NCBI RefSeq assembly: GCF_009914755.1
Contig: NC_060940.1
Reading direction: 5' to 3' (one strand)
Length of the DNA stretch: 64,000 nt
DNA from: the human T2T-CHM13v2.0 reference genome, Homo sapiens
This document shows, in pieces, positions 57,418-62,460 of this stretch. The notes under the pieces were generated by a model that was not told the origin of the DNA, did not search any database, and was given only the letters and a program-made list of their open reading frames with translations. A program made the position numbers and the translations under genes. Position 1 is the first letter of the stretch; each line of letters begins with the position of its first letter.

Positions 57418-58155
57418 GTGTGTGATTTTAGCTGTTTCAGTTATAATAAAGAAATCATAAGATAAGCGTTGATGATAATTTTTCTGAAATATATTTGCAC
57501 TTAACTAATTACTAATGTACTTTACTGTTACGTTTGAGAAGCTTCATAATTTGTGATTTTCCATTTCAGTTACTCCAAAGAGAATGTACTTGCTTGTTAG
57601 TAATGCCCAGTACTTGAATCAGAGGATATTTACACAATAGAACCATACACTGAATATAATTGCTTATTGTTTGCATCTTATGACTCTAAAAACATTGAAT
57701 TCTCAGTGACAAAATGACAGAATTGGGTATTATTGTTTACCCCAAACTAATTAGACTATTGACTAAATGACCTTATTCTCATTCTTTGCTTAAGTAAATA
57801 ACTGCCTCCAATTTTTTTTTGGTGAAAACTCTTAGATACACAAAATGCAGTTTAGATAACATTGAATTGTTTAGATGCATCCTATGTCTAAAAACTATTT
57901 AAACAACACATCTACACCTTGTGCAGTTATTTTTAGATTTGTATAAACAATTTGTTCTGACATGTGGATCATTTTGTACTAAAAAGAAAAACAAATGAAT
58001 TAGATTGAACGAATAATTTCTACAACATATAGCAGTGTTCTGCTGGTAACATCTTTTTGTTTTTTCATAATCTTAGGAGTTTGTGGTTTGTCTGTTTAAT
58101 TCGTATCGATGACACGTGTATAATGAACCTTAAGGGTTCATTTCTCTGTTGGTAG

Positions 58156-58990
58156 TGTAAACTGAAGAAAATGACTGAGGCAAGTCTCAATCGATTTAGA
58201 GGTTTGTTTTGCCAAGGTTGAGGATGTGCCAAGGAAAAAGAGACAAAAGTTACAGTAGAATCTGTGGCTTATGCTTTTCCAGAAGAGGTTTTGAGGACTT
58301 CAGTGTATAAAGGGGAGAGAACAGCAGGAGGGGAAAGAGGAAAGAAAAAAAAAGGAGGGTAGGTAATGAGATAAGCGATCACATTTTTGTGAGGCTTTGA
58401 TTAGCACTCACTGAATCCACAAGTCGCATGAGAAAGGTGGGGGTAGAGGAACAGTCAGTTATGCATTCATCTCAAGCTCAATAAATCTGCATTTTACATA
58501 GGATAAAGTAAGCAGAGTAGAGGAAGAAGTCAAATACACATTTGTCTCCAAAGGGATGATTTCTAGTCATCTTTGGTCTTTGTCCGTATCTTGTCAGAGT
58601 GAAATTCAGCAGAACTCTGGGTTGGTGTAAAGATTTTGGGGCCTACGAGGAATTTCCTTGTGAGCAATTTGCAAGAGAGTCTACCTGGGTAGATAGGTGG
58701 CCTTCTATTTTGCAGCTATCTGTTTAGGAATAAAAGGAAGGCAGTTTTTGTGTGACTCAGTTCCTAAGCTTTACTTTTTCCTTTGACATGTGATTTTCCA
58801 TTTCAGTTACTCGAAATCCCTATGTAATGAGTCTTCAGAATCTGATGAAAAAGTCAAAGGAATATATAGAAAGAGAACAATCTAGACGCAGGCTGAGAGG
58901 TAGTATTAAGAGAATTGTTAATGAGAGTCATAGTGACTCTCATGTGACATAGTTGAGTTTGGGGTCCTGAGATATTATTTCCCTTTCACA
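58156..58990 (-). mobile_element. Solo ERV1-class LTR (MER4-group like), interrupted by a 161-nt templated insertion
   Basis: TG...CA ends with 4-bp TSD GTAG (58152-58155 / 58991-58994); minus strand begins TGTGAAAGGGAAATAATATCTCAGGACCCCAAACTC, like MER4-group LTRs. Confidence 0.8.
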
Positions 58991-59467
58991 GTAGTATATA
59001 GTGTGTGGGTAGTAGATTTCATTTTGCAGATTATAATTACTGTCCATATTAAGTTTAAAAAATGTATTGAGTAGCACTAATTTAACAATAAGAGGTAGGT
59101 TTTTTACTTACTACGTATTTCCTGTGATTGAAATGAAAATGGCATATCATTCTTGGTCCATTGAGGGAAGATAAAATATACTACTAATAAAATTGTTAAA
59201 AGAGCATGTATAATGTTGAACTGTAATGAATTAATTATTCAGATAGGAAAATTTTATATAATACAATTAGATTTCTGCTTCACCTGTAAAACCTAAGATT
59301 CTATGATAGATTTTTTTCTTGTTGTTATTTAACTTGTCTAACTAAAGGCTCATTTTAGTGACGTATAAACAACATAGCTTCCGAATATCACAAATGTGAA
59401 ATATTTTACGTAAGGAAATCATCTGTTTTACTTAAACCTGTGAACATGTTCATGGATTTCATAAATA

Positions 59468-59644
59468 TGCATCCTTTTTGTTTTATTTTGGTCCTGAGGC
59501 TGTGACTAAGTATGTCTTGTACTCTTGTACTGTTGATTGCATAGTACCTGGAAACCTTTTTGCATCTTTTTTGTTTTATTTTGGTTCTGAGGTTGTGACT
59601 AAGTATGTCTTATTGTACTGTGTATTGCATAGTACCTGGAAACC
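59468..59644. repeat. ~90-bp diverged tandem duplication
   Basis: TGCATC...TGTGACTAAGTATGTCTT...ATTGCATAGTACCTGGAAACC at 59468-59556 and 59561-59644. Confidence 0.9.
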
Positions 59645-59744
59645 ATTACCTGTCTTGGGATTTGTAACGTAAAATAGGAGAGCCATGTGGTCTAGAAAAA
59701 AACAAGCACATTCAAAACAACCAAAAAATATTGTAATATTCAGA

Positions 59745-60812: not shown

Positions 60813-62460
60813 GTTAGAAAAGCACCTAATGCCAGTGATTTTGATCAGTGGGAGATGGAAACAGTTTACTCTAATTCAGAAGTCAGAAACTTGAATGTTC
60901 CTGCTACATTTCCAAATAGCTTTCCAAGCCATACGGAACACTCTACTGCAGCAAAGCTTGATAAGATAGCTGGGATTTTGCCATTGGATAATGAGGACCA
61001 ATGTAAAACTGATGGAATAGACTTAGCTAGAGATTCAGAAGGATTTAATTCTCCGAAGCAATGTGATAGTTCCAATATTAGTCATGTAGAAAATGAAGCT
61101 TTTCCAAAGACCTCTTCAGCAACCCCACAAGAAACTCTTATTTCTGATGGTCCCTTCTCAGTAAATGAACAACAGGATCTACCACTTTTGGCAGAAGTCA
61201 TCCCAGATCCCTATGTAATGAGTCTTCAGAATCTGATGAAAAAGTCAAAGGAATATATAGAAAGAGAACAATCTAGACGCAGTCTGAGAGGTAGTATGAA
61301 CAGAATTGTTAATGAGAGTCATTTAGACAAAGAACATGATGCTGTTGAAGTGGCTGACTGTGTAAAAGAGAAAGGCCAGTTGACAGGCAAACACTGTGTC
61401 TCAGTTATTCCTGACAAACCAAGCCTTAATAAATCAAATGTTCTTCTCCAAGGTGCTTCCACTCAAGCAAGCAGCATGAGTATGCCAGTTTTAGCTAGCT
61501 TTTCGAAAGTGGACATACCTATACGAACTGGCCATCCCACTGTTCTAGAGTCTAATTCTGATTTTAAAGTTATTCCCACTTTTGTTACCGAAAATAATGT
61601 TATCAAAAGTCTTACAGGTTCATATGCCAAATTACCTAGTCCAGAGCCAAGTATGAGTCCTAAAATGCACCGAAGACGTTCCAGGACATCATCAGCGTGT
61701 CATATACTTATAAATAACCCAATAAATGCCTGTGAATTAAGCCCTAAAGGAAAAGAACAGGCAATGGACTTAATTATTCAAGATACTGATGAAAACACAA
61801 ATGTGCCCGAAATTATGCCAAAGTTACCAACTGATTTAGCGGGAGTTTGTTCAAGCAAGGTTTATGTGGGCAAAAATACATCTGAAGTCAAAGAAGATGT
61901 GGTTTTAGGTAAATCAAATCAGGTATGTCAATCTTCAGGAAATCATTTAGAAAATAAAGTTACTCATGGACTTGTTACTGTGGAAGGTCAGTTAACATCC
62001 GATGAGAGAGGTGCACACATAATGAACAGTACCTGTGCTGCGATGCCAAAGCTGCATGAACCATATGCCAGCAGTCAGTGTATAGCAAGTCCAAACTTTG
62101 GAACTGTGAGTGGACTCAAGCCAGCCAGTATGTTAGAGAAAAACTGCAGTTTGCAAACAGAACTGAATAAGTCTTATGATGTAAAAAACCCTTCTCCTTT
62201 ATTGATGCAAAACCAGAATACGAGACAGCAGATGGACACACCTATGGTGTCCTGTGGAAATGAACAATTTTTGGATAACAGTTTTGAGAAAGTTAAACGG
62301 AGACTTGATTTAGATATTGATGGTTTGCAAAAAGAAAACTGCCCTTATGTCATAACAAGTGGAATAACTGAACAAGAAAGGCAACATTTGCCAGAAAAAA
62401 GATACCCTAAGGGATCTGGCTTCGTTAACAAGAATAAAATGTTAGGAACTAGTTCCAAAG
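60813..62460 (+). CDS. CCP110: CCP110 large internal coding exon (residues 91-639), includes RRL cyclin-binding motif at 586-588
   Basis: ttcag|GTT...AAAG|gtaagg; 1648 nt open frame (ORF-track 552 aa); CGG AGA CTT at 62298-62306. Confidence 0.96.

What the first reader, a model, noticed from the sequence alone, without database searches (positions are those of the whole stretch)
58784..58950. Multi-template 'patchwork' insertion containing a copy of CCP110 coding sequence, inside an intronic LTR
Seen: 58789-58812 is an exact 24-nt copy of 57552-57575 (1.2 kb upstream). 58816-58931 is a 113/116 copy of CCP110 exon 4 61207-61322 (2.4 kb downstream). It ends in a perfect fold-back ATGAGAGTCA-TAG-TGACTCTCAT (58921-58943). 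The block is bounded by a direct repeat TGACAT (58784-58789, 58945-58950), and removing the 161 nt restores a continuous solo LTR with TG..CA ends and a GTAG TSD. Established: serial short copies from nearby DNA plus snap-back synthesis are signatures of templated-insertion repair (polymerase theta-mediated end joining, MMBIR/FoSTeS). Inference: a fossil germline break-repair event with at least 3 template switches, younger than the LTR.
Basis: partly seen in the sequence, partly recalled or inferred. Interest (0 to 1): 0.8.

Follow-up and report, generated by a model that had tools for sequence, protein, structure and literature searches.

The report
Patchwork repair scar in CCP110 intron
A 161-base patch stitched from two nearby pieces of the CCP110 gene plus a small fold-back sits inside an old retroviral LTR in intron 3; it is a well-preserved example of a known kind of error-prone DNA repair or replication scar, and it keeps an older version of one CCP110 codon.

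Summary
58789-58812 is an exact copy of 57552-57575, and the match extends to 28 nt with one mismatch. 58816-58931 matches exon 4 (61207-61322) at 113 of 116 bases. A perfect 10-bp/3-nt-loop hairpin follows, and TGACAT flanks the block on both sides. In the 3.1-Gb assembly the 24-mer occurs only at these two places and the exon piece only in exon 4 and here.

Other genomic copies of the LTR run straight through the site with one hexamer, and none carries the block. It is therefore a 161-nt insertion into a solo LTR with TG..CA ends and a GTAG duplication.

Orthologue comparison shows that the patch keeps a lysine codon (AAG). All 13 non-catarrhine mammals compared have lysine there, while the human exon now reads AAC. 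The event is therefore old and germline, not an assembly error.

Best reading: one multi-step, DNA-templated template-switching event of the MMBIR/FoSTeS kind, with a snap-back at the end. Tract length and template distance do not fit classical polymerase-theta end joining alone.

Germline insertions copied from several templates are already described, so this is a new member of a known kind. Interest is modest.

The parts
58152..58155 (+). Left copy of the 4-bp target-site duplication (GTAG) of the solo LTR
   Evidence: GTAG recurs at 58991-58994.
58156..58789 (+). Left part of the solo LTR (starts TG), up to the insertion point
   Evidence: Other copies in the assembly align to this part at 70-82% identity. 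Those copies begin TGTAAACC...
58784..58789 (+). Left copy of the duplicated hexamer TGACAT (the LTR's own sequence)
   Evidence: The family has one hexamer here, TGGCAT in the 12 copies that align exactly.
58790..58816 (+). Segment 1: copy of intron 3 at 57553-57579. With the shared T at 58789 this gives 24 exact bases, or 28 nt with one mismatch at 58813.
   Evidence: (D7). The 24-mer is unique to these two places in the genome.
58816..58931 (+). Segment 2: copy of CCP110 exon 4 at 61207-61322, 113 of 116 identical, same orientation
   Evidence: (D1). AAG at 58908-58910 keeps the ancestral lysine codon.
58932..58933 (+). Two bases (AG) with no identified template. Together with T at 58931 they form the hairpin loop.
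   Evidence: the exon reads TT at the matching position.
58934..58943 (+). Segment 3: TGACTCTCAT, the reverse complement of 58921-58930 (also of exon 4 at 61312-61321). This is a snap-back or a switch to the opposite strand.
58944..58944 (+). One base (G) with no identified template, at the return junction
58945..58950 (+). Right copy of the duplicated hexamer TGACAT
58951..58990 (+). Right part of the solo LTR (ends CA)
   Evidence: Other copies align to 58945-58990 at 78-92% identity and end ..TTTCCTTTCACA.
58991..58994 (+). Right copy of the LTR target-site duplication (GTAG)
57552..57579 (+). Donor 1, in CCP110 intron 3, 1,237 nt upstream of its copy. It contains a motif that looks like a 3' splice site (TTTTCCATTTCAG).
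61207..61322 (+). Donor 2, inside coding exon 4 of CCP110, 2,391 nt downstream of its copy
   Evidence: Reading frame.

Best explanation
This is a single old germline mutation. A broken or stalled 3' DNA end inside a solo LTR in CCP110 intron 3 was extended by copying DNA from nearby in several short bouts.

The order of copying was:
1. 24-28 nt from intron 3, 1.2 kb upstream.
2. After a switch at a short patch of similarity between the two donors (CCAAA/CCAGA), 116 nt from exon 4, 2.4 kb downstream.
3. About 10 nt copied backwards, either on the new strand itself or on the opposite strand of the exon, which made a hairpin.
4. A rejoin to the LTR 6 nt behind the point of departure, which duplicated TGACAT.

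This is microhomology-primed serial template switching of the MMBIR/FoSTeS kind, or synthesis-dependent repair with repeated invasions. The last steps (2 unexplained bases, a snap-back, 1 unexplained base) resemble polymerase-theta behaviour.

Shown: the anatomy, the uniqueness of the donors, the empty-site state in other LTR copies, and that the copy predates a codon change in the exon. Inferred: that it was one event, that the template was DNA, which enzymes acted, and the date. The patch most likely has no function.
For: The donors are the only other places in 3.1 Gb that carry these sequences. That rules out a retrocopy or a repeat as the source.

No match to the LTR query in the assembly covers 58798-58944: 63 matches from 40 scored candidates out of 1010. 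Of 29 fetched copies, 22 were alignable on both sides. Twelve of these show a single hexamer exactly at the site, nine more are continuous there but with trimmed alignments, and one has an unrelated Alu-like insertion. None has the block.

Both hexamer copies carry the same A where those 12 copies have G. The hexamer was therefore duplicated from this very LTR.

Junction details: 1 nt is shared at the first junction. At the second junction the two donors are alike at 4 of 5 bases. Fillers of 2 nt and 1 nt lie at the last two junctions.

Age: the patch reads Gly in LRGS, a state seen only in the 3 anthropoid sequences among the 16 compared. It reads Lys (AAG) where Sapajus and all 12 other non-catarrhines have Lys, while the human exon has Asn (AAC) and the Old World monkey cluster representative has Met.

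Literature: germline templated insertions with up to five templates and junction microhomology or 'microhomeology' are described in humans (passages of PMC8421209). Template switching and insertion bias at meiotic breaks are also described (passages of PMC7615360).
Against: Microhomology is weak: 1 nt at junction 1 and none at junctions 3 and 4.

A clean 6-bp duplication fits a staggered double-strand break filled in and then patched just as well, so the replicative reading is not forced.

The operational MMBIR-insertion signature used by Osia et al. is an inverted copy of a template within 100 bp. Only the 10-nt fold-back meets it. The two large pieces are direct copies from kilobases away.

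Both large pieces have the sense of the CCP110 transcript, so an RNA template is not excluded.

No other primate genome and no sequencing reads could be examined. The empty site is inferred from paralogous LTR copies, not from an orthologous locus.
Confidence: 0.78

Rival explanations
1. RNA-templated patch. A cDNA was copied from CCP110's own nascent pre-mRNA, with an internal jump from exon 4 back to intron 3, and was used to fill a double-strand break. This would be a class-2 'templated sequence insertion', or an L1 ORF2-assisted event.
For: Both large segments lie in transcript sense and in transcript order. The break lies in the same transcription unit. Insertions derived from RNA at breaks are documented, and class 1 events carry a duplication of at least 5 bp (passages of PMC5110952). 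The duplication here is 6 bp.
Against: There is no poly(A) tract at either end of the patch and no TTTT/A target motif. The target reads CCTT/TGACAT. No splice junction is captured: donor 1 is followed by GA, not GT. Sense orientation of both pieces has a 1 in 4 chance expectation. Class 2 events as described lack duplications and use distant templates.
Confidence: 0.1
2. Several separate mutations. An insertion of the exon piece came first. The 24-28 nt intron piece and the inverted repeat were added later by independent short template-switch events.
For: Short-range template switches that create perfect inverted repeats are frequent in great-ape genomes (passages of PMC7954356). The hairpin alone could be such a later event.
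Against: All pieces are contiguous with at most 3 unexplained bases, and the whole is bounded by one clean 6-bp duplication. Several hits at one point are less parsimonious than one event.
Confidence: 0.07
3. Classical polymerase-theta-mediated end joining of a double-strand break, with all synthesis done by Pol theta.
For: Features consistent with this pathway are single-nucleotide priming at junction 1, reiterated priming, snap-back copying, short unexplained fillers, and mismatches near switch points (58813). These match passages of PMC5068794 and the abstract of PMC4912351 (listing).
Against: In that study inserts were mostly under 25 bp. About 85% were primed within 10 bp of the break and only about 3% came from distant sites. 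Here one tract is 116 nt, the templates lie 1.2 and 2.4 kb away, and there is a duplication with no deletion.
Confidence: 0.04
4. Not a real event: an assembly artefact, or a native part of this LTR family.
For: None was found. No reads or other assemblies could be inspected.
Against: The copies differ from their sources at 4 of 144 positions, counting the 28-nt segment and the 116-nt segment separately. One of these differences is the ancestral codon state. A chimeric assembly would be identical to the modern exon. None of the related LTR copies examined contains the block.
Confidence: 0.01

Closest known systems
Germline MMBIR-type templated insertions (MMB-TI), 'complex' class, Osia et al. 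2021 (PMC8421209; passages read)
   Same: A heritable insertion made of copies of nearby sequence, taken from several templates in forward and reverse directions. Some junctions show microhomology or interrupted microhomology. There is no gross rearrangement, and it lies in non-coding DNA.
   Different: Their search finds inverted templates within 100 bp. Here the two main templates are direct copies from 1.2 and 2.4 kb away, one tract is 116 nt, and a coding-exon fragment is copied. Two of the four junctions have no microhomology.
FoSTeS/MMBIR complex rearrangements at genomic-disorder loci (named from recall and from the introduction of PMC8421209)
   Same: Serial template switching among nearby templates, with short templated insertions at the junctions.
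   Different: Those events usually create kilobase-to-megabase copy-number changes. This one ends by returning to the original template, for a net gain of only 161 nt.
Polymerase-theta templated insertions (van Schendel et al. 2016, PMC5068794, passages read; Kent et al. 2016, PMC4912351, abstract start only)
   Same: Single-base priming, repeated priming and dissociation, snap-back copies, untemplated bases, and errors near switch points.
   Different: The scale differs (116 nt against mostly under 25 bp). The template distance differs (kilobases against within about 10-20 bp). This site has a duplication where those events usually have a deletion.
Short-range template switch mutations, four-point model (Walker, Loytynoja and Goldman 2021, PMC7954356; passages read)
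   Same: The last 10 nt create a perfect inverted repeat by copying the opposite or nascent strand, as in their model.
   Different: That model covers one reverse-oriented switch within tens to hundreds of nt. It does not cover the two direct, kilobase-range copies.
Templated sequence insertion polymorphisms, classes 1 and 2 (review PMC5110952; passages read)
   Same: An insertion of a copy of unique genomic (here genic) sequence whose donor is left intact. The flanking duplication of at least 5 bp matches class 1.
   Different: There is no poly(A) and no TTTT/A target, so it is not class 1. The templates are local rather than distant and come from several places, and there is a duplication, so it is unlike class 2. 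RNA origin is not shown.

Membership tests
MMBIR/FoSTeS-type templated insertion | The inserted bases are copies of nearby genomic templates, and the donors are left intact | tested here: met
   Both donors lie within 2.4 kb, are intact, and are the only other occurrences in the genome.
MMBIR/FoSTeS-type templated insertion | Microhomology or microhomeology at the switch junctions | tested here: inconclusive
   Junction 1 has 1 nt. At junction 2 the donors share 4 of 5 bases (CCAAA/CCAGA). Junctions 3 and 4 have 2-nt and 1-nt fillers and no homology.
MMBIR/FoSTeS-type templated insertion | Operational MMBSearch signature: an inverted copy of a template within 100 bp | tested here: not met
   Only the 10-nt fold-back meets it. 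The 28-nt and 116-nt segments are direct copies from 1,237 and 2,391 nt away. This is a limit of that search tool, not of the mechanism.
MMBIR/FoSTeS-type templated insertion | Dependence on break-induced replication factors or translesion polymerases | not testable with these tools
   This needs genetics. None is possible for a fossil event.
Polymerase-theta-mediated end joining (templated insertion scar) | Short insert templated from DNA immediately flanking the break | tested here: not met
   The insert is 161 nt, the longest tract is 116 nt, and the templates are 1.2 and 2.4 kb away. The study reports mostly under 25 bp, with about 85% primed within 10 bp.
Polymerase-theta-mediated end joining (templated insertion scar) | Snap-back (reverse-complement) synthesis and untemplated bases | tested here: met
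   A 10-nt perfect inverted copy with a 3-nt loop, plus fillers AG and G.
Polymerase-theta-mediated end joining (templated insertion scar) | Loss of bases at the break (a deletion with an insertion) | tested here: not met
   Comparison with other LTR copies shows no loss and a 6-bp gain.
L1 ORF2-mediated templated insertion (TSIP class 1) | Target-site duplication of at least 5 bp | tested here: met
   TGACAT occurs twice here and once in the related LTR copies.
L1 ORF2-mediated templated insertion (TSIP class 1) | Poly(A) tract at the 3' end of the insert, and a TTTT/A target | tested here: not met
   The insert ends ..CTCTCATG and begins GTGATTTT. The target is CCTT/TGACAT.
Solo LTR of an endogenous retrovirus (the host element) | TG..CA termini, a short target-site duplication, and many dispersed related copies | tested here: met
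   TG at 58156, CA at 58990, GTAG on both sides. There are 63 matches from 40 scored candidates in the assembly. By eye, 4-bp duplications are also seen at four other copies: L006, L007, L021 and L030. The family name was not determined because no repeat library was on hand.

The most novel reading that the evidence does not exclude
The patch was copied not from DNA but from CCP110's own nascent pre-mRNA at a break inside the gene. That would make it a natural germline fossil of transcript-templated break repair in cis. Both large pieces are in transcript sense and order, and the break lies in the same transcription unit.

A second bold reading, less likely still, is that the copied splice-acceptor-like motif plus the exon fragment is occasionally spliced in as a poison exon. 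Read in the phase left by exon 3, it reaches TAA after six codons.
Probability: 0.1. Interest if true: 0.6.

Novelty: new member of a known kind. Interest (0 to 1): 0.3.

Why it matters
This is a very clean natural example of multi-template insertion. Every base but three can be assigned to a donor, both donors are unique in the genome, and the host LTR supplies an internal 'empty-site' control through its paralogous copies. Such cases are useful for benchmarking tools that call templated insertions. Current tools look only for inverted templates within about 100 bp and would miss this one.

It also shows that a scar of this kind can freeze an older state of a coding exon. Here the frozen state is a lysine codon that the human CCP110 gene later changed to asparagine. 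That gives a relative date without needing an outgroup genome.

It does not open a new mechanism. No effect on CCP110 is indicated, and RefSeq lists no exon at this position.

Tried and rejected
1. LTR-native sequence: rejected. None of the related copies examined has the block.

2. Retrocopy or dispersed repeat as the donor: rejected. The exon piece and the 24-mer each occur only at donor and copy.

3. L1-mediated insertion: rejected for lack of poly(A) and of the target motif (criteria).

4. Integrase- or transposase-type insertion: considered because of the 6-bp duplication. Rejected because the 155 nt between the hexamers begin GT and end TG, have no terminal inverted repeats, and have no other copies.

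5. Splicing as the origin of the intron/exon junction: rejected. AG precedes 61207, but donor 1 is followed by GA, not GT.

6. The reading 'HSD' just after the exon copy matches the ancestral protein (HSD against human HLD). This suggested that the copy might run 6 nt further. Rejected as coincidence: the Ser codon in the patch is AGT, whereas the human TTA implies an ancestral TCA. That would need three adjacent changes, while the hairpin explains those bases 10 of 10.

7. An alternative register of the flanking repeat, CATGTGA at 58787-58793 and 58941-58947, would imply a 154-nt insert. Rejected because it leaves 7 extra bases relative to the other LTR copies.

8. A molecular-clock date from the 3 mismatches: abandoned as imprecise. 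One mismatch is a change in the exon, and the other two could be copying errors made at the event. Error rates of about 1 in 30 for POLQ and 1.2% at meiotic breaks are reported.

10. No primate genomes, reads, pangenome or repeat library were available. The orthologous empty site, fixation in humans and the LTR family name therefore remain untested.

11. Literature: 'CCP110' with 'templated insertion' found 0 papers. 'CCP110' with 'template switch' found 1 paper, unrelated by its title and abstract start. Supplements of the cited papers were not opened, so a listing of this locus in their event tables cannot be excluded.

Full report
**What is there.**
- 58789-58812 is an exact copy of 57552-57575. 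The match continues to 28 nt with one mismatch, 58789-58816 against 57552-57579 (family D7).
- 58816-58931 matches exon 4 at 61207-61322 in 113 of 116 positions. The mismatches are at 58892, 58907 and 58910.
- 58921-58943 is a perfect 10-bp stem with a 3-nt loop.
- TGACAT stands at 58784-58789 and again at 58945-58950.

In a k = 12 scan of the whole window on both strands, the block shares words only with these two donors.

**Is it more than chance?**
The assembly that holds the window could be searched.
- The 24-mer, allowing up to two mismatches, occurs twice in 3.1 Gb, at donor and copy. The reversed control pattern occurs 0 times.
- The 167-nt block matches only itself and exon 4. There is therefore no CCP110 retrocopy or dispersed repeat that could have been the source.
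- Perfect hairpins with a stem of 10 bp or more, a loop of 6 nt or less and a stem that is not low-complexity occur at 4 distinct places in the 64-kb window. Twenty block shuffles gave a mean of 0.8.
- This hairpin sits exactly at the end of the exon copy. As single-stranded DNA it folds at -9.1 kcal/mol, z = -3.67.

**The host element and the empty site.**
The stretch 58156-58990 found 63 matches from 40 scored candidates (1010 first-look candidates) elsewhere in the assembly, at 70-82% identity.
- These matches cover query positions up to 642 (window 58797). Six rows also cover positions from 790-799 up to 835 (window 58945 onwards). No match covers 58798-58944.
- Twenty-nine copies were fetched. 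In 22 of them both sides of the site could be aligned.
- In 12 of the 22 the two alignments overlap by exactly six bases. Those copies carry one hexamer (TGGCAT) where the window carries TGACAT, 155 nt, then TGACAT.
- Nine more are continuous through the site but with alignments trimmed a few bases short, or 88 bases short in L017.
- One (L004) has an unrelated 326-nt Alu-like insertion close to the same position.
- None has the block. Two pairs of these copies (L015/L016 and L018/L023) are near-identical to each other and are not independent.
- Both hexamers in the window share an A where those 12 copies have G. The second hexamer is therefore a duplicate of this LTR's own sequence.
- Family members begin TGTAAACC.. 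and end ..TTTCCTTTCACA. By eye, four of them (L006, L007, L021, L030) show 4-bp flanking duplications like the GTAG pair here.
- I did not determine the family's name because no repeat library was on hand. That a 4-bp duplication points to class I elements is my recollection, not a result.

**Junctions.**
- Junction 1, LTR to intron donor: one shared base (T).
- Junction 2, intron donor to exon donor: the switch falls where the two donors resemble each other (CCAAA against CCAGA, 4 of 5). The patch reads CGAAA, so 58813 G matches neither donor. It is either a later substitution or a copying error at the switch point.
- Junction 3, exon donor to inverted copy: two bases (AG) have no template. 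The next ten are the reverse complement of 58921-58930, which is also the reverse complement of exon 61312-61321. A snap-back on the new strand and a switch to the opposite strand of the donor cannot be told apart.
- Junction 4, return to the LTR: one unexplained G, then re-entry six bases behind the point of departure.
- In all there are three donors, four junctions and three unassigned bases.

**Age.**
A search with the exon-4 protein returned 149 proteins at E <= 0.001 among 170 candidates, of which 120 were listed. The named rows among them are CCP110 orthologues. I chose 15 of these to span primates and other mammalian orders and aligned them with the human exon.

Around the three mismatches the sequences read as follows:

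| Sequence | Residues |
|---|---|
| Human exon | [12 protein letters not shown] |
| Patch | [12 protein letters not shown] |
| Old World monkey cluster representative | RRNLRGSMMRIV |
| Sapajus | RRSLRGSTKRIV |

- Sapajus, Carlito, three strepsirrhines and eight other mammals (13 non-catarrhines in all) have Lys where the patch has Lys (AAG) and human has Asn (AAC).
- The exon changed on the human lineage in any case. If it had changed before the copy was made, the patch would need one specific back-mutation at that very base. It is far more likely that the copy predates the change and preserves the older codon.
- The Gly of LRGS is found only in the three anthropoid sequences and in the patch. 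The donor was therefore already an anthropoid-type exon.
- The Ile codon (ATT) of the patch is one step from the catarrhine Met (ATG). It could be a change in the patch or a true intermediate of the exon. The nucleotide sequences needed to decide were not available.
- The Arg codon (AGG against AGT) looks derived in the patch.
- I infer that the event occurred after the tarsier split and before the Lys-to-Asn change, probably in a catarrhine or hominoid ancestor. A figure in years would rest on recalled rates and on one to three changes, so I do not give one.
- The old codon also excludes an assembly chimera, which would copy the modern exon.

**Mechanism.**
The pattern is that of serial template switching by a free 3' end, followed by a return to the original duplex.
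- Germline insertions of this kind are described in people. About 100 events of at least 25 bp were found per individual, 26-33 of them 'complex'.
- Template switching and a bias towards insertions are also reported at human meiotic break sites (passages of PMC7615360).
- Short-range switches that create perfect inverted repeats are common in great-ape genomes (passages of PMC7954356).
- Polymerase-theta scars share single-base priming, repeated priming, snap-back copies and errors near switch points. In the worm data, however, they are mostly under 25 bp, about 85% are primed within 10 bp of the break, and they accompany deletions (passages of PMC5068794).
- The 116-nt tract, the kilobase template distances and the 6-bp gain therefore fit an MMBIR/FoSTeS-like or multi-invasion synthesis-dependent process better. 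Polymerase-theta-like behaviour is plausible only for the last few steps.
- The 6-bp duplication can be read in two ways: as re-entry behind the departure point, or as fill-in of a staggered break before a patch was joined. The sequence does not decide between them.

**Rivals.**
- An RNA template (CCP110 pre-mRNA) is not excluded, because both large pieces have transcript sense and order. No poly(A), TTTT/A target or splice junction supports it.
- Stepwise origin is possible, especially for the hairpin, but is less parsimonious given the single clean duplication.
- Artefact and LTR-native sequence are effectively excluded.

**Function.**
None is indicated.
- Segment 1 carries a motif that looks like a 3' splice site (TTTTCCATTTCAG). 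A hypothetical exon starting after it would reach TAA after six codons in the phase left by exon 3.
- The gene table supplied with the finding lists no exon there, and no expression data were available.

**Novelty and verdict.**
- I found no paper that mentions this locus in this context: 'CCP110' with 'templated insertion' found 0 papers, and 'CCP110' with 'template switch' found 1 unrelated paper. Supplementary event tables were not opened.
- It is a new, unusually legible member of a known class of germline mutation.
- Interest is modest (0.3). The locus is a good teaching and benchmarking case, with the small bonus of a fossil codon.

Noticed in passing
window 59468-59647: A tandem duplication of about 90 nt in intron 3. 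59468-59518 matches 59561-59611 at 94%, and 59518-59559 matches 59606-59647 at 86%. The spacings are 93 and 88, so there is a 5-nt indel between the units (families D3 and D5).
   Followed up: no
L004 about 2141-2466 (another copy of the LTR family, on C3): A 326-nt Alu-like element in antisense orientation (a T-run, then GAGACAGAG..) is inserted within a few bases of the LTR position that carries the patch in the window. One coincidence does not show a fragile spot.
   Followed up: no
window 57556-57569 and its copy at 58793-58806: Donor 1 contains a motif that looks like a 3' splice site (TTTTCCATTTCAG), and the motif was copied into the patch. A hypothetical exon starting at 58807 would hit TAA at 58825-58827 in the phase left by exon 3. 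No exon is annotated there.
   Followed up: partly
window 61299-61301 and 61323-61325 (CCP110 exon 4): The human exon has Asn where 13 non-catarrhine mammals have Lys. It has Leu (HLD) where they have Ser (HSD). The Old World monkey cluster representative shares Leu but has Met at the Lys/Asn site. This short stretch of CCP110 has changed repeatedly in catarrhines.
   Followed up: partly
L015/L016 and L018/L023: Two pairs of LTR copies on different chromosome regions (C4/C1 and C2/C2) have identical sequence around the site. They probably lie in segmental duplications, so they are not independent witnesses of the empty site.
   Followed up: no
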